Below are positions 29,511 through 60,795 of a stretch of DNA of 64,000 nt, one piece after another. Both the position numbers and the translations under genes were made by a program. The notes below the pieces were generated by a model that saw only the letters and a list, made by a program, of their open reading frames with translations, did no database searches and was not told the DNA's origin. The number at the start of each line of letters is the position of its first letter. Within the stretch, counting starts at the first letter, position 1. Origin of the DNA: Chthoniobacterales bacterium (GTDB lineage: Bacteria; Verrucomicrobiota; Verrucomicrobiia; Chthoniobacterales; Chthoniobacteraceae); the NCBI GenBank assembly GCA_038207335.1, contig JBBQZX010000009.1, positions 103,174 to 167,173 on the forward strand. The letters run 5' to 3'.

Positions 29511-29627
29511 CGGAAATCCTTCGTCAAAGGGGAACTTGGGAGTCTCATACCTATCCGCCGTTAAATCGGATCGGGCCGCGATTTCGCATGGATCAAAACG
29601 CGTTGAGCGGGAAGTTTTTTACCAGCG

Positions 29628-30323
29628 TCACGCGAGATCGAACACCAGCAGATGCGCACCCTCCTTCGCCCGGAGCGAAACCGCATCCACCTCACTCACC
29701 GCAGCCGAATCGCCTGCGTGCAAGATCGCGCCATTCACCTCCAGTTCCCCCTCGATCAATTGCACCCAAGCCGCGCGCCCTTCCGCCAGCGTGTGTTCCA
29801 CTGCATCCCCGGCGCCCAGCTTTGCCACGAAAAGATCGGCGTCCTGATTGATCGCGATCGACCCCTCCCGTCCGTCGCCTGAAGTCACCAGTTGCAGCCG
29901 TCCTTGCTCGATCCCGCCGAACGACTTCTCCGCGTAGCTCGGCGTCACCCCGCGCAGATCCGGCAGCAGCCAGATTTGCAGCAGGTGCACCGGCTCCGTC
30001 GGCGAGTCGTTGAACTCACTGTGCGTGATTCCACTCCCCGCGGTGATCCGTTGCACGTCGCCCGCGCGCATCACCGCCGTATTACCCATCGAATCCCGAT
30101 GCCGGAGCGCCCCGCTCACCACATACGTGATGATCTCCATGTCCCTGTGCGGATGCGTCCCGAAGCCCATCCCCGGCGCCACGCGATCCTCATTGATCAC
30201 CCGCAGCGTGCGGAAGTGCATATGTTTCTCATCGTGATAATCCGCGAAGCTGAACGTGTGAAACGAGTCCAGCCAGCCGTGCTGTGCGTGCCCGCGCTCG
30301 GCGGACTTGCGAATTGTGATCAT
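29628..30323 (-). CDS. Pirin family protein (YhhW-like)
   Basis: HGWLDSFHTFSFADY, GFGTHPHRDMEIITYV, AGSGITHSEFN, LLQIW. Confidence 0.95.
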   Translation of the reverse strand: MITIRKSAERGHAQHGWLDSFHTFSFADYHDEKHMHFRTLRVINEDRVAPGMGFGTHPHRDMEIITYVVSGALRHRDSMGNTAVMRAGDVQRITAGSGITHSEFNDSPTEPVHLLQIWLLPDLRGVTPSYAEKSFGGIEQGRLQLVTSGDGREGSIAINQDADLFVAKLGAGDAVEHTLAEGRAAWVQLIEGELEVNGAILHAGDSAAVSEVDAVSLRAKEGAHLLVFDLA

Positions 30324-30326
30324 GAC

Positions 30327-32900
30327 TTAGAGCTTCGCCGGTTCCGGTTGAAAATCGAGCTTTCCGTCGCTCGCATCGATCCGGATTGTTTGGCCAGCGA
30401 GGAACTTTCCCGCGAGGATTTCCATGCTCAGCGGGTCCAGCACCTCCCGCTGGATCACCCGTTTCAGCGGACGCGCCCCGTACACCGGGTCGAAGCCCTC
30501 CCGCGCCAGATGCGCCTTCGCCGCGTCGGTTAGCGTGATCGTTAGGTTCTGCGCGGCGAGCCGTTTGGTCAGACGCGCGAGCTGGATTTCCACGATGCTT
30601 GCCAGCTCCGTTTCCGTCAGCCGGTCGAACATCACGATCTCATCCACCCGGTTCAGGAACTCCGGTCGAAAGTGCGCCCGCAGCGCATCCATCACCAGCG
30701 CCTCCCGCTGCTCCACGTTGTCCGAATCGTCGATGTGCTGACTCCCGATGTTCGACGTCATGATGATCACCGTGTTCTTGAAATCCACCGTCCGTCCCTG
30801 CCCATCCGTGATCCGCCCATCGTCCAGCACCTGCAGCAGCACGTTAAAAACATCCGCATGCGCCTTCTCGATCTCGTCGAAAAGCACCACCGAATATGGC
30901 TTCCGCCTCACCGCCTCGCTCAACTGCCCGCCCTCCTCATACCCCACGTAACCCGGAGGCGCCCCGATCAACCGCGCCACCGTGTGCTTCTCCATGTATT
31001 CACTCATGTCGATGCGGATCATCGCCCGCTCGTCGTCGAACAGAAACTCCGCCAGCGCCCGTGACAGCTCCGTCTTTCCCACACCCGTCGGTCCTAGAAA
31101 AATGAACGACCCGATCGGCCGCGCATCGTCCTGGAGCCCCGCACGCGCCCGCCGCACCGCGTTGGAAACCGCGGCGATCGCCTTCTTCTGCCCGATCACC
31201 CGCGCCCCCAGCCGCTCCTCCATCTTCAGCAGCTTCTCCCGCTCCCCCTCCAGCATCCGCGACACCGGGATGCCCGTCCACGCGCTCACCACCTTTGCGA
31301 TATCCTCATCCGTCACCTCCTCCCTCAGAAACCGAAACTCCCCCGCATCCCCAGCCGTCTCCGCCACCTTCGCCTCCAGCTCCGGGATCGCCCCGTACTG
31401 GATCTCACTCGCCCGTCCCAGCTCCCCCCGCCGCTGCGCCTGCTCCAACTCCGTCCGAGCCTGCTCCAACTCCGTCTTCCAACCCCGCTGCTCCTCGATC
31501 TCCGCCTTCTCCTTCTGCCACTCCGCCTTCATCGCCCCGCCACGTTCGTTCAAATCCGCCAACTCCCGCTCGATCTTCTCCAGCCGCTCCTTGCTCGCCG
31601 GGTCCTTCTCCTTCTTCAGCGCCTGGCGCTCCATCTCGTGCTGCATCACCGCCCGTTCGATCACATCGATCTCCGTCGGCATCGACTCGATCTCCATCTT
31701 CATCCGGCTCGCCGCCTCATCCATCAGGTCCACCGCCTTATCCGGCAGAAAACGATCGCTGATATACCGGTTCGACAGCGTCGCCGCCGCCACCAGCGCG
31801 CTATCTTGGATTCGCACCCCATGATGCACCTCGTACCTCTCCTTCAGACCCCGTAAAATCGCGATCGTATCCTCCACCGACGGCTCATTCACCTGCACCG
31901 GTTGGAACCTCCGCTCCAGCGCCGCATCCTTCTCCACATACTTCCGGTATTCATCCAGCGTCGTCGCCCCGATCGTCCGCAGCTCCCCCCGCGCCAGTTG
32001 CGGTTTCAACATATTGCTCGCATCCACCGCCCCCTCACTCGCCCCCGCCCCCACGATCGTGTGCAGCTCATCGATAAAAAGCACGATCTCCCCATTCGAA
32101 TCCACCACCTCCTTCAAAAACGCCTTCAGCCGATCCTCGAATTCCCCTCGGAACTTCGCCCCTGCGATCATCGCCCCCAGATCCATCGCGATGATCCGCT
32201 TCCCTTTCAGCGACTCCGGCACATCCCCGCTCACGATCCGCCGCGCCAGCCCCTCCACGATCGCCGTCTTCCCCGTCCCCGGCTCCCCGATCAGCACCGG
32301 ATTATTCTTCGTCCTGCGAGAAAGCACCTGCATCACCCGGCGGATCTCATCATCCCGCCCGATCACCGGATCGATCTTCCCCCGCCGCGCCTGCGCCGTC
32401 AGATCCCGCCCATACTTCTCCAGCGTCTGATACTTCCCCTCCGGATTCTGATCCGTCACCCGCTGCGAACCCCGCACCTGCTGCAGGCCCTCCATCAGCC
32501 CCTTCCGCTCCACCCCTGCCTGCCGCAGATACTTCCCCGCCGGCACCGTCGCATCCACCAGCGCCAGCAGATAATGCTCCGCACTCAGAAACTCATCCTT
32601 CATCCGCGCCATCTCCCCCTCCGCCGCATTCAGCACCGTCGTCAGCTCCCGCCCGATCCCCGACTGCGTCCCTCCATGCACATTCGCCCTCCTCGAAAGA
32701 TCCGCCCTCAGCGCATCCTCCACGTTCTGCGCCGAAGCCCCCACCTTCTCCAGCAGCGGCCGCGTCACCCCCTCCGCCTGCTCCAGCAGCGCCAGCAGCA
32801 TATGCTCATTCGAAATCTCCGAGTGATTCCCCTCCGAAGCCATATCCTGCGCCCCCTTCAGCGCCTCCTGCATCTTCTGCGTAAAACGATCGATTTTCAT
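30327..32900 (-). CDS. clpB: ATP-dependent chaperone ClpB
   Basis: Two AAA+ modules ([16 protein letters not shown]), [12 protein letters not shown], long coiled-coil M domain, [13 protein letters not shown]; 857 aa. Confidence 0.98.
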
Positions 32901-33115
32901 AGATAAACTAGTCCGCCCGGTTCAGCACAAAGTCTTCCCCAGCCGCGCCAGAGTAATCGCCCCGCCCCCCTGCGCCAGCTTTACCCAAAATAGCGCCACC
33001 CCCCGCGCCAATGTCGCCCTCTTCTCCCTGCTTTGAACATGGAAGGTGCGAAAAACCCGGCCCATAGCAGCGCCCTCCCGTCATAAAATCTGCCCGACAA
33101 CGAAAGAGCGCACGC

Positions 33116-33220
33116 TGGATGGCGGCGCTCCGCGCGCCATGCGTCTCTTCGCCGAAGGCCATCCTTTCCGAGTGGCGCTAGCGCGCAGTGATGGCATGGC
33201 GCGCGGAGCGACGCCATCCA
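33116..33220. repeat. REP/MITE-like palindromic element, copy 1
   Basis: Terminal inverted repeats tggatggcggcgctccgcgcgccatgc … gcatggcgcgcggagcgacgccatcca. Confidence 0.8.
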
Positions 33221-33242
33221 CCTTGGCCTTCTCCTCCGCGAA

Positions 33243-33848
33243 TTAAATATCCTTCCGCGGCGCGGCAGCCCCCGCCTTTCCAGCCGCAGCCTCATCCTCA
33301 TACACCACCTTAAAGGTCCAGCTATAATACCCGATCCCCGGCACCGTCAGCGTGATCGTGCGCCGCTCCCTCTTTAGCGCATCCTTCGTCTCCCACACCG
33401 TCTCCAGCGCATTCTCCTTCGCCTTCTCTGCAAAATTCTTCCCATGCGCGATACTCGGCACCTTTACCGGCGTCCCATACTTCTCCGTCAGAGACTTGCG
33501 CATCGACTCATAGAAGGCCAGTCCCTTCTCCTCTGACTTATCCACACTGTATTTTACGCTTACCGTCGCCGCCGCAAAAGCATCACCCGCGAAGCGCAAC
33601 TCCAGCTCCGAGATCGGCTCCCCGGCATACGTGCCGCCCGAAAAGGTCATCACATCCGACTTCTCAGCCTTCAGCTTGATCCCCCGAGCCTGCATCTCCT
33701 TCTTCGCCGCCGCCGGATTCGCCCCAAACTTCAGCCCGAGGAAATCATCGATCTTCTCCGCCGCGGAAAGAGGCACCAAGGCCAGCGTAAGACACAACAA
33801 CGCGAGCAGGGAGGGGAGTTTGATCGGAGGAGGACTCATGATGGCCAT
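33243..33848 (-). CDS. Secreted hypothetical protein
   Basis: Signal peptide LLALLCLTLALVPLSA; plausible globular sequence (FLGLKFG…SLTEKYGTP). Confidence 0.75.
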   Translation of the reverse strand: MAIMSPPPIKLPSLLALLCLTLALVPLSAAEKIDDFLGLKFGANPAAAKKEMQARGIKLKAEKSDVMTFSGGTYAGEPISELELRFAGDAFAAATVSVKYSVDKSEEKGLAFYESMRKSLTEKYGTPVKVPSIAHGKNFAEKAKENALETVWETKDALKRERRTITLTVPGIGYYSWTFKVVYEDEAAAGKAGAAAPRKDI

Positions 33849-33942
33849 AAATTACCACACGCAGCCCCTCGCAGGCGATAATATTCCCGGCAATAACGCC
33901 ACAGGCCGTCATGCATGTTGCAGGTTGCCGGAGGAGGAAGCC

Positions 33943-34055
33943 GGGTGGATGGTGGCACTCCGCGCGCCATGCCGACCGATGCGCGACAGCGCCACTCGGC
34001 AAGGATGGCCTCCGGCGATGGGAACGCATGGCGCGCGGAGCGACGCCATCCACCC
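33943..34055. repeat. REP/MITE-like palindromic element, copy 2 (inverted relative to copy 1)
   Basis: Same terminal IRs; the core agcgccactcggcaaggatggcctccggcga is the reverse complement of the copy 1 core tcgccgaaggccatcctttccgagtggcgct, with few mismatches. Confidence 0.8.
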
Positions 34056-34341
34056 TGCGCTCCTTCACCCGACGGCCAAGCTACAAGGCAACCGGACGTT
34101 GCCATGGGAGGTCGATCGGGCGGGTGTCGCATTTTTGAGATTTACTCTGGTCTGTACCGCGTACAGCAGCCTACTTGTGCGGTACAGGGGGCAAGGCGCC
34201 GCGCGGCGCGCGGGGTATTTTTGTTTAAGAATATCACTTGCCCCCTGCTTCGGCGTGGAGGATAGGCAGCGCGCGAAGGCTGGAGGCGTCTCTGAATGCA
34301 AGGAAACCGCTCGGTCAGGCCGCATTATCCCCCACTTTCCT

Positions 34342-37300
34342 ATGAATATCCTGTCTTTGTCTCTGTCCACGCTCCGCTCGGTGCTGTCTGCCCGCGGTGG
34401 CTTCGCTGCCGCGGCCGCCGGGGTGCTGCTGCTCGCGAGCTTTGCAGGGAGTGCGGAGGGGAAAGTGGTGGCTTGGGGGTATGGTGGGGAGGGGGTGGCT
34501 CCCGTGCCGCCAGGGGCGCTGACCGGGGTGAAGGCGATCGCGGCGGGGTCGAATCACACGCTCGCGCTGAAGGTGGATGGCAGCGTGGTGGCGTGGGGGC
34601 GCAATGTGGAAGGGCAGACGACGGTGCCCGCAGCAGCGCTGTCGGGGGTGACGGCGGTGGCCGCAGGCTACTATCACAGTGTGGCGCTGACGAGTGCGGG
34701 GAAGGTGATTTCCTGGGGCTCGAGTGCCGGAGGGCAAACATACGTGCCGGTGGCGGCGCAGTCGGGCGTAGTCGCAATCGCCGGCGGGGCGTATCACACG
34801 ATGGTACTCAAGGACGACGGGAGCGTGATCGTGCTGGGTGCGCAGGGCCAGCCGGTGCTCACGGTGCCGCCCGCGGCGAAAAGCGGTGTGATCGCGATCG
34901 CGGCGGGATTTTACTCCTGTGTCGCGCTGAAGGACGACGGGAGCGTGGTCGCGTGGGGTCAGAACGATCGTGGCCAGACGACGGTGCCGGCGGCGGCGCT
35001 GTCGGGAGTGACGGCGATTTGCGCGAGCGATTATGCGACTTTTGCGGTGAAGGACGGAGGGGTGATCGCGTGGGGCAGCAATGATTACGACGAGACGGCA
35101 ATCCCGCTCGATGCGCAGTCGGAAGTGACGACTATCACGGCTGGGAGGTTTCATATGTTCGCGCTGAAGATCGACGGAACGTTGGTTGGGTGGGGATACA
35201 ACGCCTACGGGGACCTGCTTCCTCCCGCATCGGCGCAGTCGGGCGTGCTGGCGGTGGCCGCGGGGGGGTATAACAGCGTGGCGATCGTCGGGGCGATCGA
35301 GGTGCTGCCGACTCTGGGTGCGCCGACGAGTGCATATATTTCCTCCTATTCCGCGACGCTCGGAAGCGATGTCGCTGCCGATGGCGGGGCGGCGATCGTG
35401 GAGCGCGGGGTGGTGTTTTCTCTGACTTCGGAAAGTGCGACGCCTAGTCTCGGCGGCGCGGGCGTGACGAAGATCACGGACAGCGGGACGACGGGCGTCT
35501 TCACGGTGCTGACCTGGTCACTTCAGCCCGCTTCGAGATATTCGTTCCGAGCGTATGCGACGAATTCCGAGGGGACGGCCTATTCGAGCGCGGCCACATT
35601 CCGTGCGCTGCCGGATACGGTGATTACCACGATATTTTCGCAGGTGCCGACTCAGAACACGGGGGCGGAGATCATGTTCAATCGAGGAGATTCTTCACCG
35701 GCGGAGCCGCTCACTTTTGAGGGAAGCCTGGATGGGGCGGTGTTTGCGACGGTGACGAGCCCGGTGACGCTGACCGGGCTGGCCGATGGGTACCGCACGT
35801 ATGTCGTGCGGGCGAAGGACAGCGATGGGAACGTGGACCCTGCGCCGGCCGTCTTGCCCTGGGTGGTGGATACGACGCCGCCGGAGACGACGATCACCTA
35901 CGGCCCGGTCGGGCGCGTGGCGAGTACGAGTGCGGCGTTTGCATTCGGGGCGGGTGAGGCTGTGTCTTTCACTTATGTGCTGGATCACGGCGAACCGGTG
36001 GCCGGCCTGACGGGGACGGTGTGTCACGGCCTGCCGCCGAGCTTCGTCTTTCATGGGCCAACCGGCTCCTACGCGGCGGTGAGTTTCGATGGACTCGCGC
36101 TGGGAACGCACACGCTGCGGGTCTTCGCGACGGACTTGGCGGGGAATGTGGACGCGACTCCCGAGACGCGGACGTGGTCGATCCAGATCGATCCCGTGGT
36201 GGCTGTGGAGTTTGCGAAAGGGTCGGCGGTGCCGGGTGCGGGGGTGGAGGGGAGCGGAGTGGCAGCGGGGGCGGTGTTCGTGAGCTTCGGGGTGCCGTCG
36301 ATCAATGACGCGGGGGATGTGGCTTTTCTGACGAAGTGGAGTGCGCCAAGGGAGAAGGGTGTTGGGATCTTTGCGGGGAGTCCGGCGGCGCTGGTGGTGA
36401 AGGTGGGGGACGAGGCGACGGGTGGGGCGACGTTCGCGACGCTGAAGGACCCGGTGCTGGGGGATACGGGGGCGGTGGCGTTCAAGGCGACGCTGGTGGG
36501 GCCGGGGGTGACGACTGGGAATGACACAGTGCTTTTCACGAATGCGGCTCCCGGTGGGGCGCTCAGGCTGGTGGCGCGGGAGGGGGCGGTAGTGGATGGG
36601 TTGAATATCAAGAGCATCGGGAGCTTTTCGCTGCGCGGGGCGGAGGTGCTTTATGTGGCGACGCTGGCTGGCGGGCATCCGGCGGTGACGGAGGCGAACA
36701 ATATGGCGGCTTACAGCGTGATGGCGGGTATGCGAAGGACGGTGGTGCGGAAGGGGCGGCTGTTTGGGGCATCGCCGGTGAAGAGTTTCTCGCTGCTGGC
36801 GGCGGTGGCGGGTTCGCCGGGGCAGAATCGCGCGCATGTCGCCGGGAGCGCGGCATTTCTCGTGTTGCTCGCGGATGGGACACAGGCGCTGGTGGATAGC
36901 GCTGGAGGAGTGCTGACGGCATTCGCGCAGACGGGCGGGACGACTGGCAGCACGGCACTGCCGGGCACGACATGGAAGAGCTTTGGCCCGGTGGCCGCGC
37001 CGGAAGGGGCGTTCGCGGCTGTGGCGGCGACGCTGACGCCGGGTGTGGGCGGGGTGACGGCGGCGAACGCGAAGGGGATTTTCGTGGGCAATGGGACTGC
37101 ATTTAACCCGGTGGCGCGCGTGGGCGGGCCGACGGGGACGGGTGGGGCGGTTTTCGCGAGCTTCAAGGATCCGGTGCTCGCACCGGAGACGGGGGCGGTG
37201 GCCTTCCGGGCGACGATCGCGGGCACGAGGGCTGTGACGACCGCCAACGATACAGCGCTGTGGTGGAAGCCGGCAGGCGGGGCGCTCACGCGGCTCGCCC

Positions 37301-37662
37301 GGGAGGGCGGTCACCCGGAGGAAACGGAGGCTGGGGTGACGTGGCTGAGCTTCACGAGTCTCGCGATCGCCGGAGGCGAATATGGCGCGCCGATCTTCGT
37401 CGCCACGCTGCTTCAGGGGAAAGGGGGCGTGAAAGCCTCGAATGACACGGGCCTCTGGGCCGTTGACAGCAACGGCGCGCTGCGTCTGCTGGCACGCGAA
37501 GGGGATACGATCGAAGGCAAGAAGTTGAAGACGATCACCGCGCTGACGGCGGCGCCCGGCGCGCCGGGAGTAACGCGGAGCTTTAACAACGCCCGGCAAG
37601 TCATCTACCTCGCGACTTTCACTGACGCCTCGCAGGCGGTGATCACGGTGCAGGTGCCGTAG
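34342..37662 (+). CDS. Secreted protein: RCC1/BLIP-II-like repeats, FN3/Ig-like domains, C-terminal NxxGxxAF-type repeat domain
   Basis: Start re-called at ATG 34342 (signal peptide). IAAGxxHxxALKxDGSVVAWGxNxxGQ repeats; LQPASRYSFRAYATNSEG; VDTTPPETTI; PSINDAGDVAF…RLLAREGD…RSFNNARQVIY. Confidence 0.85.
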   Translation: MNILSLSLSTLRSVLSARGGFAAAAAGVLLLASFAGSAEGKVVAWGYGGEGVAPVPPGALTGVKAIAAGSNHTLALKVDGSVVAWGRNVEGQTTVPAAALSGVTAVAAGYYHSVALTSAGKVISWGSSAGGQTYVPVAAQSGVVAIAGGAYHTMVLKDDGSVIVLGAQGQPVLTVPPAAKSGVIAIAAGFYSCVALKDDGSVVAWGQNDRGQTTVPAAALSGVTAICASDYATFAVKDGGVIAWGSNDYDETAIPLDAQSEVTTITAGRFHMFALKIDGTLVGWGYNAYGDLLPPASAQSGVLAVAAGGYNSVAIVGAIEVLPTLGAPTSAYISSYSATLGSDVAADGGAAIVERGVVFSLTSESATPSLGGAGVTKITDSGTTGVFTVLTWSLQPASRYSFRAYATNSEGTAYSSAATFRALPDTVITTIFSQVPTQNTGAEIMFNRGDSSPAEPLTFEGSLDGAVFATVTSPVTLTGLADGYRTYVVRAKDSDGNVDPAPAVLPWVVDTTPPETTITYGPVGRVASTSAAFAFGAGEAVSFTYVLDHGEPVAGLTGTVCHGLPPSFVFHGPTGSYAAVSFDGLALGTHTLRVFATDLAGNVDATPETRTWSIQIDPVVAVEFAKGSAVPGAGVEGSGVAAGAVFVSFGVPSINDAGDVAFLTKWSAPREKGVGIFAGSPAALVVKVGDEATGGATFATLKDPVLGDTGAVAFKATLVGPGVTTGNDTVLFTNAAPGGALRLVAREGAVVDGLNIKSIGSFSLRGAEVLYVATLAGGHPAVTEANNMAAYSVMAGMRRTVVRKGRLFGASPVKSFSLLAAVAGSPGQNRAHVAGSAAFLVLLADGTQALVDSAGGVLTAFAQTGGTTGSTALPGTTWKSFGPVAAPEGAFAAVAATLTPGVGGVTAANAKGIFVGNGTAFNPVARVGGPTGTGGAVFASFKDPVLAPETGAVAFRATIAGTRAVTTANDTALWWKPAGGALTRLAREGGHPEETEAGVTWLSFTSLAIAGGEYGAPIFVATLLQGKGGVKASNDTGLWAVDSNGALRLLAREGDTIEGKKLKTITALTAAPGAPGVTRSFNNARQVIYLATFTDASQAVITVQVP

Positions 37663-37730
37663 CGCGCGTTCGCCTTTCCCGCGCCGTTGTAGCCGGGATC
37701 GCCGATCCCGCGGCCGGTGTGGAAGGTGCG

Positions 37731-41159: not shown

Positions 41160-41534
41160 AGATAGAAACGTCAGGGGACGCGCTGGGGAAAACGTTGGAA
41201 GATTGCAATGATTCGACCTTTGTCACCTCGTTTTCTCGCGAAAAATCGGACCCGCCGTTTCAAAGCCCCGCTTAGAGCGATGCGAGGTGTACGGCTGCAA
41301 ATTGCGTCTTCTGGCTTCTCATATTGGATTTATAAGTGAGAATTGCTCCTGAGTATGGATAGGAAGCCGCAGAATAGGAATTCCACGGTCGGCGGAGGCT
41401 CTGGGGATGTTCGGCGACATCATCTCAGGCTGGAGATGGCATATCGGTGCGATTTTCACCCAACGCCGCACCCGCTTCCCGACCCGGAACCCCGTCCACG
41501 CTACGGAGCCTTGAGCTGCGCTGTGCCTCACGAG

Positions 41535-49241: not shown

Positions 49242-49260
49242 TCCGCGAGCAATCACCCGC

Positions 49261-52347: not shown

Positions 52348-52730
52348 CTGCACCAGAGTTCGCAGAGCTGTTCTTGCTCACTCGGCGGGTGGTTGTCACC
52401 GATTCGACTTCATGAAAACCATCCAGGTCATCGGTGAACTCGCCTCTACGGCCCAGCGAAGTTGCGCGCTTCTCAGCAATGAATGAAGGGTTGCCGGGGA
52501 TTGATGCTCCTGGCGGGGCGGGGTGGAGGCAAAGCGCATACTGCCGGGATCGACGATTCCGGGTCACGTGGGTGCCTGCGCAACATGGACATGCAAATTT
52601 TGCTAAATTGTTTATTCGGTAGCTTGAAAGTGGTGGGTTCGCGGATACGTTCGCGGGCTTTTTCGCCTCCGACTCGCTGCTTCACGCCCTCCCACCGCTG
52701 CACTGCTAATTTTCCGACCTCTCTTCTTTT

Positions 52731-55700
52731 ATGAAACATCCCCTCATCGAACCGCTCGAGTCCCGTATCGCTCCAGCTTCGCTTTCGATCTCGATCGTCA
52801 ATGCTCAAATTCCCGAGGGAAACCAGGCGGATGCGGGGACGGTTTTTGCGGAGTTCACGGTGACGCTGGATGTGGCGGACACGCAGACGGTGTCGGTGCA
52901 TTTCGCAACGAGCGATGGGACGGCGACGCTGGCGGATGGGGATTACACGCAGGTGAATCAGACGGTGACTTTTGCGCCGGGGGTAACGCAGCAGACGGTG
53001 CGCGTGCCGATCACGAGCGATGCGAATTTCGAGAACGACGACGTTTTCCACGCGACGCTGTCGTCGCCGACGAATGCGACGCTCGGAGTGTCGATGGCGG
53101 ATGCGACGATCATGAATGACGATGGGCGGCCGACGGTGTCGATCTCGAGCCCGAGTGTGACGGAGGGCGGTGCGCTGAGTTTTGTCGTGTCGCTTTCGGC
53201 GAAGTCGATCGAGCCGATCACGGTGAATTACAACAGCGCGGATGGGACGGCGATGATCGCGGATGCGGATTACACGGCGGTGGGCGGGACGTTGGTTTTC
53301 TCGCCGGGGCAGACGACGAAGACGATCAATGTGGCGACGCGGAGCGACACGACTTTCGAGCAGGATGAGACGCTGACGGTGCAACTCACGGGACTGCAAA
53401 ATGCGACGTTTGCGAATGACACGGGGACGGGGAAGATCATCAACGATGACTCGGCGCTGACGATCGACTCGGTGACGATTGTGGAGGGGAATGACGGGAC
53501 GAAGGATGCGGTCTTTACGGTGCGGCTGAGTGGCGGGCCGGGCGGGCCGGTGTCGGTGGATTTTGCGACGTTGGATGGGACGGCGACAGGGGGCTTGGAT
53601 TTCACTCATGCGTCGGGGACGCTGATGTTTGAAGGGACGACGGTGCTTCAGACGATCACGGTGCCGATCATCGGGGATACGATTCAGGAGGCGGATGAGA
53701 CATTTTCGGTCAAGCTGTCGAATGCGTCGGGAGCGACGATTTCGAGCGATACCGGGACGGGGACGATCACAAATGACGACGTCGCGAATTTGTCTGTGAC
53801 GAACTTCTCCGTGCCGGAGGGAAATGACGGGCCGGCGCAGGTGGGCTTCGTGGTGAATCTGAGCACGGTGGCGGACCAGGATGCGACGGTGCACTACACG
53901 ACGGCGAATGGGACGGCGGCGGCGGGCGATGATTACACGGCCACCACGGGGACGCTGACAATCCCGGCGGGGCAGACGAGCGGGACGGTCTTTGTGGAGG
54001 TGAATGGTGACACGCTGGGCGAGCCGGATGAGACGTTCTCGCTGGTCTTCGACACGCCGACGAATGCGACTTTCACCGGATCGCGCACGCAGACGGTGAC
54101 GCTGCTGAACGATGACTCGCCGTCGCTGAGCATCGCGGACTTGAGCGTGACGGAGGGGACGGGCGGGGTGCGGAACGCCGTCTTCGTGGTGTCGCTGAGC
54201 GCGCCGGCGACGGAAGCGGTGACGGTGCATTTTGCCACGGAGGATGGGACGGCGACCGCGGCGGATTACACACCGACGGTGGGCGACCTGATGTTTGCGA
54301 TCGGCGAGCGGACGAAGACGATCACGGTGCCGATCACGACGGATGCGATCGCGGAGGGGAATGAGACTTTCACCGTGAAGCTGTCGGCGGCGACGGGAAG
54401 CTCGGGCTTCACGAAGGATTCGGCGACGGGGACGATCCTCGACGATGACGCGAAGCCGGTGGTCTTCATCGACAGCGTGAGCGTGAGTGAAGGGGCATCG
54501 GGGCTGACGACGGCGCACTTCACCGTGACGCTGACGGGCGCGACGGAGCAGACGGTGACGGTGGATGTGGTGACGCAGGACGGGACGGCGACTACGGCGG
54601 ACAACGACTACGTGGCGCGCGCGACACAGACGCTGACTTTCGCGCCGGGTGTGACGACGCAGAGCTTCGATGTGTCGGTGATCGGCGACACGCGCGGGGA
54701 GGCGAATGAAACGTTTTTTGCCAAACTGTCCGGGGCGACGAATGCAACCATCGGCACGGCGCAGGGGACGGGGACGATCCTCAACGATGACGCGGCGCTG
54801 ACGATCGACGACGTGCGGATCGTGGAGGGGGACGGCGGGACTTCGATGGCGGTCTTCACGGTGTCGCTGAACTTCGCGGACCCGATGCTGACGACGACGG
54901 TGGACTTTGCGACGAGCGATCTGACGGCGACATCCGGGACGACCGGGACGGATTACGATGCGAGGAGCGGGACGCTGACTTTTGCGCCGGGGGAGATGAC
55001 GAAACAGATTTCGGTGCCGATCCGTGGGGATACGGTCGGGGAAAACGATGAGACATTCCGCGTGACGCTGAGTAATGCGGCGAATGCGGCGATCGTGAAG
55101 GGGCAGGGGACGGGGACGATTTTGAACGACGACTCGTCGATCTCGATCGGGAATGTGTCGATCGTGGAAGGAGACTCGGGGACGAAGAACGCGGTGTTCA
55201 CGGTGACTCGGTCGGGTTCGACGTTCGGCGCGGTGACTTTCCACTACACGACGACGGACGACACGGCAGTCTCGACGGGCACGGATGCGGATTTCAATGC
55301 GGTGTCGGGGACGGGAACGATCGCGGCGGGCGCGACGATCACGACGATCAGCGTGCCGATCCGTGGCGACCTGAACAAGGAGGCGACGGAGCAGTTTTTC
55401 GTGGACCTGAGTGACTCGGCGAATGCGCTGATTTCCGGCGCCCGCGGGACGGGGACGATCACGGACAATGACCCGAACCCGACGGTGTCGATCAGCGATG
55501 CGCCTGCGATCTTCGAGGGCGACAGCGGGACGACGAATGCGATTTTCACGGTGACTCTGTCGGGATCGTCGAACCTGCCGATCACGGTGAACTACGCGGC
55601 GATCGACGGGACGGCGGCGAATGGTAGCGACTTCACGTTGCCGGGCGGGACGGTGACGTTCGCGCCGGGTGAGGTGACGAAGCAAATCCTCGTGCCGGTT

Positions 55701-58700
55701 AATGGGGACACGATCGACGAAATCGATGAGGCTTTTTCCGTGAAGCTGAGCGGCGCGACGAATGCGACGATCGGGCGCGACACGGCGGCGGGGACGATCC
55801 TGAACGACGACCTGTCGATCACGATCGACGACAATCCTGCGATAGTGGAAGGCGACAGCGGGACGAGCAACGCGCAGTTCACCGTTCATCTGAGCGCGGC
55901 GAGCACGCATCCGGTGACGGTGAATTACGTGACGTCGAACGGCACGGCGACCGCGGGACAGGACTATACGTCGAGCAGCGGGATGGTGACTTTCGCGGCG
56001 GGCAGCACGACGGCGACGATCTTCGTGCCGATCATCGGCGACATGCTGGATGAGCGTGCGGACGAGACGTTCACGGTGAAACTTTCCGGCGCGACGGCCG
56101 CGGTGATCGGCGACGACACGGCGACCGGCACGATCCTCAATGACGACGCGAATCCGGGGCTGACGATCGACGACCTGACGATCGCGGAAGGCGACACGGG
56201 CACGAGCATGGCGACTTTCACGGTGCATCTTGCGAAGCCCTCGACCGAGGCGATCACAGTGAATTACGCGACGATGGACGGCACGGCGATGGCGGGTTCG
56301 GATTACGACGCGAAGATGGGGACGCTGACGTTTGCGCCGGGTGAATTGACGAAGACGATCTCTGTCACAATTCACGGCGACACGCTCGCGGAGCCGGATG
56401 AGACCTTCACGGTCGAACTGAGCGACGCGAGTGCGAACTCGACGCTCGCGAAGGCGTCGGGCATCGGCACGATCCAGGATGCGCGCACGATTTCGATCGA
56501 CAACGTGACAAAAAGCGAGGGTCAGAGCGGCACGACGGTCTTCACTTTCACCGTGAGCCTGGATGCAAATGCGGAGCAGGAAATCACGGTGAAATTTGCG
56601 ACGGCGGACGGCACGGCGACCATTGCCGGGAACGATTATCTCGCGACGAATGGGATGCTGACTTTCGCCGTGGGCGAGCGCACGAAGACGGTCGAGGTAA
56701 TCGTCAATGGCGACACTGCGGTGGAGCCGGATGAGACTTTCAACGTGAACCTGACCGACGCGACGCACGCGACGCTCGCGAAAGCCATCGGCGTCGGACG
56801 GATTCAAAACGACGAGACGACGTTCAAGATCGTGAGCGGGAGTGATGCGACGTCCTCGACGGTGACGGTCTTGGAAGGCAGTCCGGGAGCGACTTCGCCG
56901 ACGAATGCGACTTTCACGATCGTGCGCGGCGGCGACCTGTCGCAGGCCGGTTCGGTGCAATATCAGACGATCGCGGGGACTGCGACGGCGGGCGCGGATT
57001 TCACGGGAACTGGGCTCGTGTCGATCGGCTTCGCGCCGGGCGAATCGACAAAGACGATCAGCATCCCCATCACGCAGGACGCGGATCGCGAGGCGCAGGA
57101 GAGCTTCACGGTCGTGCTCGCGAACCCGGTGAATGCGGCGATTGCGGACGGCGGCGGGACGGGGACGGTGGTCATCAATGACGACGACGGGCCTGTCACG
57201 ATCAGCGTTTCCAACCCAGCGATCATCACGGAAGGGAACACGGGCGACACGAACTTGAGCTTCGTCGTGCGGCTTTCCGCGGCCGATTACACGGGGCCGG
57301 TGACAGTGCATTATCGCACGACCGACGGCACCGCGGTGAGCACTGGCGACGCCGCGGATTTCCTCGCGATCGATGACACGGAGCTAACCTTCGCGCCGGG
57401 TGAGACGACGAAAACGATCGCGGTGTTAATTCACGGTGACGTGATCCACGAGCCGGATTTGGAGACGTTCAGTTTCGATCTCAGCGATGCGACCAATGCG
57501 ACGATCGCGAACGGCCACGCGGTCGGAACGATCCGTGACGATGACACGTCGACGATCTCCTTCTCCGGCGGAAACAACGGCGACATCAGCCTCGCGGAAG
57601 GCAACAGCGGCACGACGGATTTCGTCTTTACGGTGCATCTCTCGGTCGCCTCCCAGAGTACGGTGACGGTGAGCTACACGATCGAGGACGGCACCGCGAA
57701 ATTCGGCGGGACGTCGCCGGATTACACGACGGCTTTGCGCACCGGCACGCTGACTTTCACGCCCGGTGAGGTGGATCAAACGATCACGATCAGCGCGCTC
57801 GGCGACTCGATTTTCGAGGGGGATGAGACGTTCAATGTTCGGCTGAGTGGTGCGGTCGGTGCGACGATCTCCGACGCGCTCGCGGTCGGCACGATCTTGA
57901 ATGACGACGCCGCGCCATTGCTCACGATCGGCGATGTGACGGTGACGGAAGGCGACTCCGGCACGACGAACGAGGTCTTCACCGTGACGCTCTCCGGGGA
58001 ATTTCAGGATTCCGTGACTGTCGATTTCGCCACTGCCGACGGCACTGCGAAAGACGGCGTGAATGACGGGATCACGCTCGCGGATTATCGTGAGGCGCAC
58101 GGCACGCTGACCTTCCTCGCGGGCCAGACGACAAAGACGATCACCGTCGCGATCGTGGGCGATCTTTTCAAAGAGGCGACCGAGACGTTCTCGGTGAATC
58201 TCACGAATTTGGCCGGCGCGACTTTCGCCAATGACACGGACAGCGCGACGGGCACGATCCTCGACAACGACACGAAAGTCGGCGTGCTCATCGGCGACGT
58301 GTTTGTCGTCGAGGGCAATCTCGTGGCCGGAACTCAGACGCCGCAGCAGACGGGCGCGACTTTCCAGATCGAGCTCACCGGCCCATCGGACACTGACGTG
58401 ACCTTCACCGTCGCGACCTCGGATCGCACCGCAATCGCCGGCTCCGACTACATCGCGTCGTCGCAACTCGTGACGATCCCCGCCGGACAAACGACCGCGA
58501 CTTTCACCGCGACCGTGCTGGGGGACAACGACTTCGAGTTCGGCGCGACCGAGGCTTTCTCCGCGAAGATTAGCGGCATCTCGGCGAATGCGACCGGCGC
58601 ACGGACCGAGGCGACTGGGTTCATTTACGGCGACGACCGCTTCATCTCAGCCGACGGGCGCACCGTGAAATACATGGATGTCGATGGCGACGTCGGGACG

Positions 58701-60719
58701 ATCACGATCTCGAAAGGGCGGTTCACGGGGAATGAGTTCCAGTGGCAAAAGGCCGGAACGGTTGGCGGCGAGCAGTTGCAATTTATCGATCTGCGCGGCG
58801 CGACGCGCTTCGCCAATGCGAACCTGCGCGTGACCGGCGAGCCCGCGCCCGGCTTTCCCGGCGTGAGCGATGGTAAGGTGAATGTCGGCTTCATCGTCGC
58901 AGCCGTGCCCGATCCCCAGTCGCTGCAATTCACCCTTGGCATCGACCTCGGCACGGTTTTCATCGATGGTGATCTCGGGCGCATCGACGCGGGCGACACC
59001 TTCGTCTCACCTGCGATTCGGAAGCTCGAGGTCGGCTCATTCGGCGCCGTCCCCGGCACCCTCCCGAATGGCAGCGACGGCAATCCGCTGCCGAACACCA
59101 GCTCCGTACTCGCGTCGATCTCGAAGATCATCGTCCACGGCGATTTCGCCGGCCAGTTGCAGGTCTTCGGCGACAATTTTGGTGACATCGGCTCGCTGAA
59201 AATCGAAGGCGCGCTGACCGGCGCGCTCGGCGAGGGGGTCGTCTTTTTCAGCGGCACGCTCGGCAATGCTGTCATCGGCAGCATCGTCGGTGGCTCCGTC
59301 AATGGCAGCGGCCAAGTGATCGGAAACGTAAGCACTCACGCGAATATCAACTCCATCACTGTGCTCGGCGCAGTGACCGGTGGCAGTGGTGGCTCGAGCG
59401 GTCAAATTCACGCGGAGCGCATTGGCAGCGTGAAAATGGGGAGTCTTGTCGGTGGTACCGGCATCAACTCGGGCACGATCGTCGGCGATGGCACTCGCGG
59501 TCGAGTCGGTACCGTGAAAATCCTCGGCGACATCATTGGCGCGCAGACCCTCGGCGCGTCGGATGACAACACCGTGGCTGCGACCTCCGGCACCATCTTC
59601 GGCCAGACCGGCGTCGGGAATGTCAACGTCGGCGGCAGCATCCGCGGCGGCGTACTGCACAACAGCGGCTCCATCGTTTCCAGCGGAAATATCGGCTCCG
59701 TCACCATCGGCGGAAACGTGGAAGGCGGCACCGGTACCGGCAGTGGCTCGCTCCTCGTCAGCAACGGAAAAGCGAACCGCGTGCAAGTCGGCACGGCCAG
59801 TTCGCCGAGCCAGATCATCGGTGGAAGCGGCGCATCCTCCGGTATCCTTTCCATTCACGACGCGCCGAACATCAAGGTCTTCGGCGACATTCTCGGCGGC
59901 CTCGGCAACCGCAGCGGCGGCATCGATTCACAGGGGAAAATCAACGCCATCACCGTCACCGGAAACATCACCGGCGGAGACTCCCTCGCGAGCCGCGCCG
60001 TCGTCAACAGCGGCTACATCAGCGCCGCAAAGCTCGGCAACGTCACGATCAACGGCAACGTCACCGCAGGCACGAATGGCGGTGCGGGCATCGCGGGCAG
60101 CGGCGCCATCCGCGCGCTCGACACCATCAGCTCGCTCACCATCAAAGGCAGCGTCGTCGGCAATTCCACGAACGCCGTTCAGATTTCCGCCGGCGGATTC
60201 CGCGGTTCCGGCTTGGCCGAGTCCACGTTAGTCCTCCGCAGCATCAAGCTCGCGACCGACACCGGAAACGTCGTCCGCTTCGCCGAAATCCTCGCCGGAT
60301 ACGGCGGCGCGCTCAGCGTCGGCTCGCCCCGCGCCACCGCGCTAAATCCCGACGCGCAAATCGGCGACATCCTTATCGGCGGCACCATCTCCGGCACGAA
60401 TATCGTTGCCGGCAGCGCGCCCGGCACCGACGGCCGCTTCGGCACCTCCGACGACGCGATCATCTCCAGCGCTCAGGTCACCGACGACACGCGCCTCATC
60501 TCAAAAATCGCGAGCGTCGTCATCCGCGGAGCCGTCGAGCCTGATGCCGATCCGGCCAACAGCTACGGCATCGTCGCGCAGCAAATCGGCAGCATCAAAG
60601 TCGGCAGCGCCGCCGCGATCAAACTCCCGAAAAACGCCGTGAAACATCTCGTCCCCATCGGCCCCGCCGCCGCGAATTTCACAGCCGTCCAAATCGAACT
60701 CAACCCGACAGCAATCTAA
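52731..60719 (+). CDS. LEPR-XLL-like (IEPLESRIAPA) giant surface protein, ~17 Calx-beta domains plus Gly-rich beta-helix-like C-terminal region
   Basis: N-terminus MKHPLIEPLESRIAPA with no hydrophobic signal peptide; repeated xEGxxG…DGTA…TLTFAPG…DETF…GTIxNDD; C-terminal YMDVDGD…GTDGRFGTSDD…YGIVAQQIGSIKVG. Confidence 0.9.
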   Translation: MKHPLIEPLESRIAPASLSISIVNAQIPEGNQADAGTVFAEFTVTLDVADTQTVSVHFATSDGTATLADGDYTQVNQTVTFAPGVTQQTVRVPITSDANFENDDVFHATLSSPTNATLGVSMADATIMNDDGRPTVSISSPSVTEGGALSFVVSLSAKSIEPITVNYNSADGTAMIADADYTAVGGTLVFSPGQTTKTINVATRSDTTFEQDETLTVQLTGLQNATFANDTGTGKIINDDSALTIDSVTIVEGNDGTKDAVFTVRLSGGPGGPVSVDFATLDGTATGGLDFTHASGTLMFEGTTVLQTITVPIIGDTIQEADETFSVKLSNASGATISSDTGTGTITNDDVANLSVTNFSVPEGNDGPAQVGFVVNLSTVADQDATVHYTTANGTAAAGDDYTATTGTLTIPAGQTSGTVFVEVNGDTLGEPDETFSLVFDTPTNATFTGSRTQTVTLLNDDSPSLSIADLSVTEGTGGVRNAVFVVSLSAPATEAVTVHFATEDGTATAADYTPTVGDLMFAIGERTKTITVPITTDAIAEGNETFTVKLSAATGSSGFTKDSATGTILDDDAKPVVFIDSVSVSEGASGLTTAHFTVTLTGATEQTVTVDVVTQDGTATTADNDYVARATQTLTFAPGVTTQSFDVSVIGDTRGEANETFFAKLSGATNATIGTAQGTGTILNDDAALTIDDVRIVEGDGGTSMAVFTVSLNFADPMLTTTVDFATSDLTATSGTTGTDYDARSGTLTFAPGEMTKQISVPIRGDTVGENDETFRVTLSNAANAAIVKGQGTGTILNDDSSISIGNVSIVEGDSGTKNAVFTVTRSGSTFGAVTFHYTTTDDTAVSTGTDADFNAVSGTGTIAAGATITTISVPIRGDLNKEATEQFFVDLSDSANALISGARGTGTITDNDPNPTVSISDAPAIFEGDSGTTNAIFTVTLSGSSNLPITVNYAAIDGTAANGSDFTLPGGTVTFAPGEVTKQILVPVNGDTIDEIDEAFSVKLSGATNATIGRDTAAGTILNDDLSITIDDNPAIVEGDSGTSNAQFTVHLSAASTHPVTVNYVTSNGTATAGQDYTSSSGMVTFAAGSTTATIFVPIIGDMLDERADETFTVKLSGATAAVIGDDTATGTILNDDANPGLTIDDLTIAEGDTGTSMATFTVHLAKPSTEAITVNYATMDGTAMAGSDYDAKMGTLTFAPGELTKTISVTIHGDTLAEPDETFTVELSDASANSTLAKASGIGTIQDARTISIDNVTKSEGQSGTTVFTFTVSLDANAEQEITVKFATADGTATIAGNDYLATNGMLTFAVGERTKTVEVIVNGDTAVEPDETFNVNLTDATHATLAKAIGVGRIQNDETTFKIVSGSDATSSTVTVLEGSPGATSPTNATFTIVRGGDLSQAGSVQYQTIAGTATAGADFTGTGLVSIGFAPGESTKTISIPITQDADREAQESFTVVLANPVNAAIADGGGTGTVVINDDDGPVTISVSNPAIITEGNTGDTNLSFVVRLSAADYTGPVTVHYRTTDGTAVSTGDAADFLAIDDTELTFAPGETTKTIAVLIHGDVIHEPDLETFSFDLSDATNATIANGHAVGTIRDDDTSTISFSGGNNGDISLAEGNSGTTDFVFTVHLSVASQSTVTVSYTIEDGTAKFGGTSPDYTTALRTGTLTFTPGEVDQTITISALGDSIFEGDETFNVRLSGAVGATISDALAVGTILNDDAAPLLTIGDVTVTEGDSGTTNEVFTVTLSGEFQDSVTVDFATADGTAKDGVNDGITLADYREAHGTLTFLAGQTTKTITVAIVGDLFKEATETFSVNLTNLAGATFANDTDSATGTILDNDTKVGVLIGDVFVVEGNLVAGTQTPQQTGATFQIELTGPSDTDVTFTVATSDRTAIAGSDYIASSQLVTIPAGQTTATFTATVLGDNDFEFGATEAFSAKISGISANATGARTEATGFIYGDDRFISADGRTVKYMDVDGDVGTITISKGRFTGNEFQWQKAGTVGGEQLQFIDLRGATRFANANLRVTGEPAPGFPGVSDGKVNVGFIVAAVPDPQSLQFTLGIDLGTVFIDGDLGRIDAGDTFVSPAIRKLEVGSFGAVPGTLPNGSDGNPLPNTSSVLASISKIIVHGDFAGQLQVFGDNFGDIGSLKIEGALTGALGEGVVFFSGTLGNAVIGSIVGGSVNGSGQVIGNVSTHANINSITVLGAVTGGSGGSSGQIHAERIGSVKMGSLVGGTGINSGTIVGDGTRGRVGTVKILGDIIGAQTLGASDDNTVAATSGTIFGQTGVGNVNVGGSIRGGVLHNSGSIVSSGNIGSVTIGGNVEGGTGTGSGSLLVSNGKANRVQVGTASSPSQIIGGSGASSGILSIHDAPNIKVFGDILGGLGNRSGGIDSQGKINAITVTGNITGGDSLASRAVVNSGYISAAKLGNVTINGNVTAGTNGGAGIAGSGAIRALDTISSLTIKGSVVGNSTNAVQISAGGFRGSGLAESTLVLRSIKLATDTGNVVRFAEILAGYGGALSVGSPRATALNPDAQIGDILIGGTISGTNIVAGSAPGTDGRFGTSDDAIISSAQVTDDTRLISKIASVVIRGAVEPDADPANSYGIVAQQIGSIKVGSAAAIKLPKNAVKHLVPIGPAAANFTAVQIELNPTAI

Positions 60720-60795
60720 CACCAACCCCCTTTCGCCGCGCAAAATCCCGGCTTGCCAAAGCAACCCGAACGCGCACATTTTTAGGGCTCACCTC

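What the first reader, a model, noticed from the sequence alone, without database searches (positions are those of the whole stretch)
29600..60720. Multi-kb G/C-skew oscillation independent of gene direction, with sharp C->G switches
Seen on the + strand: C-rich ~30.3-33.8 kb (hand count, 60-nt line 31321: 32 C/8 G), then G-rich ~34.4-39.5 kb across two convergent genes (line 36421: 32 G/13 C; line 38341: 31 G/11 C). C-leaning again through the RND gene, G-rich from ~52.8 kb (line 53521: 31 G/11 C), fading to C-rich by ~60 kb. Much of it is synonymous (ACG/GTG/GGG versus ACC/GTC/GGC) and it shifts within single genes. Known: replication skew normally flips only at ori/ter, and transcription skew follows gene direction. 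Inference: a local strand-asymmetric mutation or repair process radiating from discrete sites about 19 kb apart here. The lines counted were hand-picked.
Basis: partly seen in the sequence, partly recalled or inferred. Interest (0 to 1): 0.7.

Follow-up and report, generated by a model that had tools for sequence, protein, structure and literature searches.

The report
One-way G-rich tracts from intergenic sites
In this bacterium, well over a hundred short gaps between genes each start a stretch of about four thousand bases in which one DNA strand has been pushed almost entirely toward G and away from C, whatever the direction of the genes, which points to an undescribed local DNA copying or repair process.

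Summary
The skew is real, extreme and genome-wide. At fourfold-degenerate sites clpB has 22 G to 375 C on the + strand, and the 3' third of the convergent PATR gene has 226 G to 11 C. The genome is Chthoniobacteraceae-like and has 177 source regions among 1,841 intergenic regions scored. C-to-G switches are sharp and intergenic; G-to-C returns are gradual and lie inside genes. Most sources are one-sided: a G-rich tract runs 5'->3' outward for a median 4.1 kb. It is equally strong in sense and antisense genes, crosses convergent gene ends and ignores replichore. A and T stay balanced, so plain deamination fails and a direct C/G asymmetry is needed. Intergenic 21-bp-period arrays mark sources (20 of 23, 2.8 expected), as do several hairpin repeats, but 132 of 177 sources carry no marker. 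Inversion, chimerism, gene-specific codon use, oriC-type origins and a HIP1-type motif were not supported. Best inference (0.4): local, leading-strand-like displacement or repair synthesis starting at structured intergenic DNA. I did not find it in nine literature searches. The scan noted analogous footprints on other DNA (HIP1, Asgard atpB).

The parts
29628..33848 (-). Left-going tract: C-rich on +, G-rich on the - strand, covering pirin, clpB and an unannotated ORF; residual fourfold skew about -1.0 at 31-33 kb
30327..32900 (-). clpB (AAA_2, ClpB_D2-small, Clp_N); 22 G / 375 C at fourfold sites on +
32901..33242 (.). Intergenic region fitted as an extra left-going source (amplitude 0.57)
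32948..32956 (-). TTACTCTGG on the - strand, pointing into clpB; polar source-associated motif that resembles a -10 box (resemblance recalled)
33111..33225 (.). REPIN-like palindromic doublet, copy 1 (arms 33111-33142 and 33194-33225); DNA fold z -5.4
33849..34341 (.). Source A: divergent intergenic region, two-sided (right 0.91, left 0.85); second strongest switch of the genome
33940..34058 (.). REPIN-like palindromic doublet, copy 2 (arms 33940-33972 and 34026-34058); z -5.9; all 4 intergenic regions holding this family are sources
34142..34187 (+). TTACTCTGG followed by a CTGTACCG...CGGTACAG hairpin; by eye a remnant of the 21-bp-array family at G000 C13:48145-48300
34342..39750 (+). Right-going G-rich tract through the RCC1-repeat gene (+, 34342-37662) and on into the 3' part of the convergent PATR gene (-, 37731-41060), ending inside that gene
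39750..45914 (.). Mostly neutral stretch between tracts (residual skew mostly -0.3 to 0)
46129..52347 (-). Weaker left-going tract (about -0.2 to -0.5) under + strand genes gmd, marR, the HlyD-family gene and the RND gene
52348..52730 (.). Source B: tandem intergenic region (right 1.05, left 0.42); no strong hairpin (z -0.9 and +0.9) and no marker motif
52731..57750 (+). Right-going G-rich tract within the 5' 5 kb of one Calx-beta repeat gene (52731-60719)
58500..60719 (-). Left-going tract in the 3' end of the same Calx-beta gene, from a third source near 60.7-63 kb (step 0.74, rank 98)
60796..60866 (+). tRNA gene (anticodon read by eye as TCC, Gly) in the third source region, followed by a phage-like remnant

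Best explanation
Shown: many intergenic sites each anchor a one-way tract of about 2.4-9.5 kb (median 4.1 kb) in which the strand running 5'->3' away from the site has gained G and lost C at all classes of silent site, with A and T balanced, independent of gene direction and of contig-level fork direction. Inferred: these sites, often hairpin- or 21-bp-array-bearing junk DNA, are recurrent starting points of local, leading-strand-like DNA synthesis or unwinding (a nick, a migrating D-loop or a primosome-type restart) that runs a few kb. The outward strand is left single-stranded or is copied by a repair pathway. It takes C>T, A>G and above all C>G changes (fitted about 1.8-, 4- and 11-13-fold if transitions outnumber transversions fourfold or more). 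Palindromic elements act on both strands and give two-sided switches; asymmetric ones give one tract. The enzyme is not identified.
For: Sharp up-steps are intergenic and down-steps are not. Intergenic C->G sources fit with R2 0.61, random positions 0.43, flipped sign 0.43, on the 12 largest contigs. The 111 one-sided sources average about 0 upstream and +0.52, +0.63, +0.66, +0.61, +0.54, +0.43, +0.33, +0.25, +0.13 per 500 bp downstream. Sources occur in all four gene contexts (4.2-4.6%, 10% at convergent ends). Tracts do not drop where a sense gene meets a convergent one (-0.06 against -0.17 within genes). Right- and left-going sources are mixed within contigs (chi2 p 0.84, 36 contigs). Source share by marker, against length-matched expectation: 21-bp arrays 20 of 23 (2.8), other periods 3 of 34 (4.8), GGTGCGGCGTT hairpin 14 of 37 (4.7), TTACTCTG 11 of 21 (3.1), REPIN 4 of 4 (0.6). 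The palindromic REPIN profile is two-sided, the GGTGCGG hairpin profile one-sided. Contig ends are G-rich outward in 24 of 105 cases and C-rich in 2. The polarity equals that of a leading strand. The fitted spectrum resembles the C>G, A>G, C>T set on single-stranded DNA and in break-induced replication (PMC7615360, passages).
Against: No enzyme or universal cis-motif was found: 132 of 177 sources carry none of the six markers, and source B in the window has neither hairpin nor marker. Hairpin strength hardly differs between sources and non-sources. One abundant GTAG-type REP is not clearly enriched (5 of 29, 2.6 expected). The markers were first noticed at strong switches, so their enrichment is partly circular, and they may be passengers at insertion-prone sites: near-identical IS-like ends also sit at tract starts. 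Proteins in strong tracts are not more diverged from relatives (rho +0.05, p 0.23, 665 pairs), so there is no sign of a raised rate. A two-parameter fixation-bias model fits about as well (SSE 0.06). DnaE2, DinB/ImuB, MutL, RecG and Y1 transposases occur in relatives with and without strong skew.
Confidence: 0.4

Rival explanations
1. Strand-biased mismatch resolution. Breaks or nicks at the sources give 3' tails that form heteroduplex with a divergent homolog for a few kb. MutS/MutL corrects the invading strand well at G-containing mispairs and poorly at C-containing ones, so that strand drifts to C and its partner to G: a polar form of biased gene conversion.
For: Base shifts behave like fixation weights, G x4 and C /2.2 with A=T, alike at twofold and fourfold sites (SSE 0.06) and without a strong sequence-context preference. 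No protein acceleration. MutL is present. C-C mismatches are not repaired by E. coli MMR (PMC5416779, passages). Strand-biased mismatch resolution at breaks is documented in mouse cells (PMC9001825, passages). The inward-running C-rich strand is the one a resected break would leave as a 3' tail (inference).
Against: It needs frequent recombination with divergent DNA at fixed sites. A two-ended break should give two-sided switches, but only 10 of the 83 right and 72 left strong sources are paired. The full mismatch ranking beyond C-C is recalled, not read. MutL is also present in relatives without the pattern.
Confidence: 0.2
2. Dispersed true replication origins. The chromosome is copied from very many DnaA-independent starts, and the skew is a fork-direction map like mammalian N-domains.
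For: Polarity and sawtooth shape match origins. Contig-level offsets are small in G000 (within +-0.15) while same-genus G004 has offsets of +0.20 to +0.44 and -0.51 to -0.54 over 20-160 kb, and G017 has plateaus of +-0.7-0.9 over 20 kb or more with sharp -/+ switches, which suggests a continuum of domain length. No cluster of three near-consensus DnaA boxes was found. Multi-origin, DnaA-independent replication is reported in cyanobacteria (PMC7198777, abstract).
Against: Most sources are one-sided and tracts fade to zero in about 4 kb even with no opposing source. That would need hundreds of starts per round. dnaA, RNase HI and recG are present. No DnaA-box enrichment at sources (0.102 against 0.105 per kb at up to one mismatch). 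G000 lacks the T>A component seen in G004 (dln T/A 0.12 against 1.10). The intergenic anchoring is clear only in G000 (mean step +0.152 against +0.015 to +0.065 and -0.027 in five relatives).
Confidence: 0.15
3. Transcription or R-loops. Element-borne promoters fire outward, sense or antisense. The displaced non-template strand loses C, and G-rich RNA stabilises the loop further.
For: Geometry fits a displaced non-template strand. TTACTCTG resembles a -10 box, is polar, and is active only between genes (downstream +0.60 for 21 intergenic copies, +0.07 for 17 coding copies).
Against: Generic -10 and -35/-10 patterns are not enriched at sources. Tracts pass convergent gene ends and stop inside long genes. 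Divergent promoter regions are not favoured. TTACTCTG explains only 11 of 177 sources.
Confidence: 0.1
4. Selection on RNA sequence, for example C-rich Rho-loading RNA heading into the sites or G-rich RNA leaving them.
For: The spectrum behaves like selection weights on G and C, and convergent ends are twice as often sources.
Against: Equal strength in sense and antisense genes. Amino-acid composition is dragged along (Val 0.056 to 0.083, Pro 0.063 to 0.048 across bins). Ortholog skew is not consistently shared with relatives (rho -0.32 to +0.37 over 11 genomes). Most transcription-unit borders show no step.
Confidence: 0.07
5. A mosaic: inversions or transfers scrambled an ordinary replichore skew, or the assembly is chimeric.
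For: The clade holds genomes with strong long-range skew (G004, G017), and in G017 six of seven sharp down-steps are also at junctions.
Against: Inversions give equal sharp up and down steps; here 167 up against 28 down at intergenic regions of 150 bp or more. Gradients lie inside single genes. Separately assembled contigs of the likely source run span 31768-34445 and 34436-44196 with no differences at depth 14-17. Contamination is 0.63%.
Confidence: 0.03

Closest known systems
Replication-origin GC-skew switch (oriC), including proposed or shown multi-origin bacteria (Xia 2012 PMC3269012, passages; Ohbayashi 2020 PMC7198777, abstract)
   Same: C-rich to G-rich switch on the + strand; G-rich strand runs 5'->3' away from the site; independent of gene strand.
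   Different: About 177 sites instead of one or a few; mostly one-sided; about 4-kb reach; intergenic repeats rather than DnaA boxes; amplitude up to +-0.9 at fourfold sites; almost no T/A component.
Mammalian skew domains and CpG-island bidirectional asymmetries (Polak and Arndt 2009 PMC2817419, abstract; N-domains recalled)
   Same: Sharp upward jumps at discrete sites with gradual decline between them.
   Different: Bacterial; kilobase rather than up to megabase scale; far stronger; polar sources.
Strand-asymmetric mutagenesis at meiotic break hotspots and in break-induced replication (Hinch 2023 PMC7615360, passages)
   Same: Kilobase footprints with off-centre peaks; C>G, A>G, C>T spectrum; flips at the site.
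   Different: In resected flanks the single-stranded forward strand lies left of the break, which would give the opposite polarity; only a migrating D-loop geometry matches (my inference). No SPO11, PRDM9 or REV1 equivalent is identified here.
HIP1 skew footprint in a cyanobacterium (scan note e1-7687214; Elhai 2015 PMC4390886, abstract)
   Same: Site-anchored synonymous G/C skew, independent of gene direction.
   Different: Opposite polarity (G to C), about 1 kb, thousands of copies of one palindrome, also inside genes. No such k-mer or palindrome here.
REP/REPIN elements with RAYT (Y1) transposases (PMC3733652, passages)
   Same: Hairpin doublets sit at source A; three Y1_Tnp matches in the genome.
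   Different: The word skew does not occur in that paper; one REP family is not enriched at sources; Y1_Tnp number does not track the pattern across relatives.

Membership tests
oriC-type replication origin | One or few switches per chromosome, skew held to the terminus | tested here: not met
   177 sources; median tract 4.1 kb
oriC-type replication origin | DnaA-box cluster at the switch | tested here: not met
   0.102 against 0.105 boxes per kb at up to one mismatch; no cluster anywhere; box consensus recalled
oriC-type replication origin | Bidirectional, C-to-G polarity | tested here: inconclusive
   Polarity met; only 10 sources are two-sided above 0.5
oriC-type replication origin | Forks start at the site | not testable with these tools
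   Needs nascent-strand or marker-frequency data; only contigs are available
Transcription-associated skew | Sign follows gene strand and ends at terminators | tested here: not met
   0.58 sense, 0.53 antisense; no drop at convergent ends
Single-strand deamination skew | T exceeds A on the G-rich strand | tested here: not met
   Predicted ln shift about +1, observed +0.1; SSE 1.25-1.45
HIP1 / methylation-site footprint | Over-represented short motif at switches, including in coding DNA | tested here: not met
   No 4-, 6- or 8-mer or 3+4 bipartite motif with a sizeable step in coding DNA; no iterated palindrome
Chi-like recombination site | Short polar motif active in genes and between genes | tested here: not met
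   TACTCTG downstream +0.36 for 32 intergenic, -0.03 for 53 coding copies
Resected double-strand-break footprint | C loss on the forward strand left of the break | tested here: not met
   The left side is C-rich
REP/RAYT system | Palindromic REP doublets plus a Y1 transposase | tested here: met
   this classifies the hairpins, not the skew
REP/RAYT system | Transposase needed for the tracts | tested here: inconclusive
   G039 has strong skew and no match; G014 and G030 have 15 and 8 matches and no pattern
Inversion mosaic | Equal numbers of sharp up and down steps at breakpoints | tested here: not met
   167 up against 28 down
Biased gene conversion | Bias acts at fixation, at recombination hotspots | not testable with these tools
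   No close relative or strain variants; nearest ClpB 85% identical

The most novel reading that the evidence does not exclude
This lineage has a previously undescribed site-initiated DNA-synthesis system, possibly extending to chromosome replication from hundreds of dispersed one-way starts. It loads at structured intergenic elements, generates or attracts 21-bp-period arrays, and overwrites oriC-based strand asymmetry with a C>G-dominated footprint. Across Chthoniobacterales its tract length would range from about 4 kb (G000) through tens of kb (G017) to replichore scale (G004).
Probability: 0.25. Interest if true: 0.92.

Novelty: new variant of a known kind. Interest (0 to 1): 0.74.

Why it matters
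Bacterial GC skew is treated as a read-out of one origin plus transcription. Here silent sites are nearly saturated by a third, local force, with mapped start points, a measured reach and a distinctive spectrum. That gives a ready list of about 177 sites at which replication start, single-strand exposure, breaks or conversion can be tested directly. It also bears on why GC content and codon use vary in high-GC bacteria: A+T at fourfold sites falls from 17% to 8-10% in the strongest tracts, and amino-acid use shifts. It warns that skew-based origin calling, assembly checks and codon-bias inference fail in such genomes.

Tried and rejected
Universal motif: contiguous, gapped and oriented k-mer scans; best TTACTCTG in 10 of 177 source sequences against 8 of 2,096 others. 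Known RNA family at sources: Rfam on window 28-64 kb and on 20 source regions gave three tRNAs and one sub-threshold 6S match. Sigma-70 promoters: none in 32.8-34.5 kb, no enrichment genome-wide. Flanking gene families: none enriched (best p 0.04, uncorrected). Hairpin energy and BLAST self-inverted repeats: little or no difference. ops-like antitermination element and dif/XerC arm for GGTGCGGCGTT (both recalled): orientation to the next gene is mixed and I saw no XerD arm (by eye). TnpB: no match. One reverse transcriptase, not followed up. Loss of dnaA, RNase HI, recG, mutL or a Y-family polymerase: all present. Replichore dependence: none. Periodicity: none. No RNA holder listed for the region; the only DNA holder may be the source sample and gave no usable strain variants. 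Equilibrium models with deamination only, C>G only, C>X only or oxidation on the other strand fit badly; X>G only was intermediate, SSE about 0.42.


Full report
Setting. The window is G000 C9:103174-167173 of a 5.17-Mb, 53-contig genome, 94.7% complete and 0.63% contaminated. Its ClpB is 83% identical to that of a Chthoniobacteraceae genome, so the organism is a verrucomicrobium of that family or near it. Genes were called with a self-trained dicodon model (3,781 genes, 89% coding). 'Residual skew' is G versus C at fourfold sites on the + strand after removing each codon family's genome-wide preference.

The observation. The cumulative residual over 5,006 sites spans 695, against at most 157 in 2,000 shuffles. 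Genome-wide, 1-kb windows have a z-score spread of 4.1 where chance gives 1; 32% of 4,952 windows exceed |0.3| and 12% exceed |0.5|. As a control, 48 of the 80 clpB loci were 15 kb or longer; 3 gave no scorable window and 2 gave only one. The other 43 have spreads of 0.64-2.29, and only one (L066) has a window beyond |0.5|. These are short loci with locally estimated baselines, so the comparison is rough.

Geometry. Steps are skewed upward: 40 up-steps but 4 down-steps reach 1.0. Of 181 up-steps of 0.6 or more, 149 lie within 100 bp of a gene junction; of 128 down-steps, 38 do, against 25% for random positions. A non-negative fit with sources allowed only in intergenic regions explains 61% of variance on the 12 largest contigs, against 43% for random positions and 43% for the reversed sign. 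Of 1,841 intergenic regions scored (60 bp or longer, away from contig ends), 177 exceed amplitude 0.45. Above 0.5 there are 83 right-going and 72 left-going sources, 10 of them paired (3.2 expected). The 111 one-sided sources show no skew behind them and a tract ahead that peaks at 1-1.5 kb and fades by about 4.5 kb. Tract length for 101 strong sources is 2.4-9.5 kb, median 4.1 kb. In the window, source A (33849-34341) is two-sided, with a booster at 32901-33242; source B (52348-52730) is mainly right-going; a third source lies near the tRNA at 60796.

What it does not follow. Sources make up 4.2-4.6% of oriented intergenic regions in three gene contexts and 10% at convergent ends. Tract skew is 0.58 in sense and 0.53 in antisense genes, and it does not fall at a convergent junction more than within genes. 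Right- and left-going sources are mixed within contigs (p 0.84), and the dnaA region shows no dominant switch. Ortholog skew is not consistently shared with 11 relatives (rho -0.32 to +0.37; three nominally positive, one nominally negative), so it is not gene-specific codon choice. Contigs assembled separately from the likely source run cover 31768-34445 and 34436-44196 without a difference; this checks the assembly but is not an independent organism, and source B was outside the stretch laid.

Spectrum. From the most C-rich to the most G-rich bin, fourfold A/C/G/T go from 0.041/0.853/0.067/0.039 through 0.083/0.446/0.381/0.090 to 0.048/0.115/0.781/0.056. Twofold sites move in step (T at NNY 0.12 to 0.56, A at NNR 0.50 to 0.14), all codon contexts respond, and amino-acid use shifts. 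Equilibrium fits reject deamination alone, which predicts T well above A. Two models fit: fixation-like weights (G x4, C /2.2; SSE 0.06), and C>T x1.8, A>G x4 plus C>G x11-13 (SSE 0.004-0.08 when the transition ratio is 4-8). Either way a direct C/G asymmetry of about 8-fold or more is needed. Proteins in strong tracts are no more diverged from relatives than others (665 pairs, p 0.23), a weak argument against a much higher local rate.

What marks the sources. No motif is universal. Several lineage-specific elements are enriched against length-matched expectation: 21-bp-period arrays 20 of 23 (2.8), against 3 of 34 (4.8) for other periods; the GGTGCGGCGTT hairpin 14 of 37 (4.7); TTACTCTG 11 of 21 (3.1); the window's REPIN 4 of 4 (0.6); one GTAG-type REP 8 of 21 (3.1); attC-like sites 6 of 19 (2.7). 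Another REP (5 of 29, 2.6) and tRNAs (4 of 19, 2.8) are not clearly enriched. The arrays differ in consensus from locus to locus, and several reverse orientation mid-array (by eye). GGGTGCGGCGTT occurs 39 times in G000 and at most 7 times in each of 40 relatives; its 35 intergenic copies have +0.47 and +0.40 in the first two kb downstream and about 0 upstream, while the 5 REPIN copies are two-sided. Together the six markers cover only 45 of 177 sources. They were first seen at strong switches, so the tests are partly circular. Near-identical IS-like ends at tract starts show that elements can also arrive after a tract exists. Cause and passenger are not separated.

Relatives. Of 24 relatives sampled (20-180 kb each; G036 failed gene calling), 9 of 23 have a spread above 2 (G017 5.5, G039 3.85, G018 3.6, G005 2.85, G019 2.84, G007 2.4, G031 2.4, G028 2.3, G004 2.2) and 14 do not. 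G017 has plateaus of +-0.7-0.9 with sharp -/+ switches. G004 has humps almost all of one sign per contig and a T>A component. Against my reading of one shared process, the intergenic anchoring is clear only in G000: mean step +0.152 over 1,021 regions of 150 bp or more, against +0.024 (G004), +0.015 (G017), -0.027 (G039), +0.065 (G018), +0.041 (G028) and +0.011 in a pool of eight pattern-free genomes. DnaE2, Y-family polymerases, MutL, RecG and Y1 transposases do not separate the two groups.

Mechanism. Shown: a polar, site-anchored, transcription- and replichore-independent C/G substitution bias. Inferred: the G-rich strand has leading-strand polarity, so the simplest cause is local synthesis or unwinding that starts at structured intergenic DNA and runs a few kb (0.4). 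Strand-biased mismatch resolution in heteroduplex explains the spectrum with fewer parameters but predicts two-sided switches and needs divergent donors (0.2). True dispersed origins (0.15), element-driven transcription or R-loops (0.1), selection on RNA (0.07) and mosaic or artefact (0.03) follow; the remainder is unassigned.

Literature. Nine full-text searches listed no paper that, by title or start of abstract, describes kilobase polar skew tracts from intergenic sites in a bacterium. The library lacks most subscription journals, and I read no supplements; genome-by-genome skew tables there could list such genomes as anomalous. I saw passages of 10.1101/808410, PMC3733652, PMC5416779, PMC8941118 (no mention of Verrucomicrobia in the main text), PMC7615360, PMC9001825 and PMC3269012, and abstracts with outlines of PMC4390886, PMC2817419 and PMC7198777. 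N-domains, ops, dif, Chi, primosome assembly sites and the full MutS ranking are recalled, not read. Two unchecked scan notes describe analogous footprints on other DNA.

Verdict. The feature is real and strong, and I could not find it described. The pattern is established with high confidence, the mechanism is not. New variant of a known kind (site-anchored strand asymmetry), interest 0.74.

Noticed in passing
window 60796-62960: A tRNA gene followed by low-coding DNA and a terminase small-subunit ORF (62466-62960; PHROG 4102, E 4e-30): a phage-like remnant at a tRNA, beside the third skew source.
   Followed up: partly
G000 intergenic regions, e.g. C10:15560-16032, C1:388676-389293, C13:47869-48541, C20:71162-72038: 23 or more degenerate 21-bp-period arrays, each with its own consensus, several reversing orientation mid-array; origin unknown.
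   Followed up: partly
G000, 39 exact copies, e.g. C3:125591-125602: Lineage-specific short hairpin with loop GGTGCGG and G-T-tolerant stem, in two subfamilies; the reverse strand also reads like a conserved N-A-A-P peptide with a variable third codon position (by eye).
   Followed up: partly
G000 C4:172435-176392: By eye an imuA-like ORF with a TGTTC-N4-GAACA box (Verrucomicrobia LexA box, recalled), followed by an IMS-family gene and a second DNA polymerase III alpha; it sits beside a strong left-going source.
   Followed up: partly
G000 C3, C14, C29, C36, C50 contig ends: Many attC-like repeats (25-37 BLAST hits per end), suggesting integron cassette arrays.
   Followed up: no
G000 whole genome: Strong avoidance of GTCGAC (0.08 of expected) and CAGCTG (0.13), suggesting restriction-modification sites.
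   Followed up: no
L066 (Edaphobacter record): The only control locus with a 1-kb window beyond |0.5| (-0.77); Acidobacteria may show a related local skew.
   Followed up: no
G004 C1-C4, G017 contigs: Fourfold-site skew of +-0.5-0.9 held over 20-160 kb in high-GC relatives, unusually strong long-range asymmetry.
   Followed up: partly
L173:180-363 (G000 C6): Sub-threshold 6S RNA match (40 bits, cut-off 46.4) inside a strong source region.
   Followed up: no
G000 C3:272665-273270: Single reverse-transcriptase match in a 467-aa open frame.
   Followed up: no
window 9673-18534 and 19227: A 2,953-aa Ig/Calx-beta adhesin-like gene whose skew also drifts along its length, ending at a weaker up-step near 19.2 kb (step 0.54).
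   Followed up: partly
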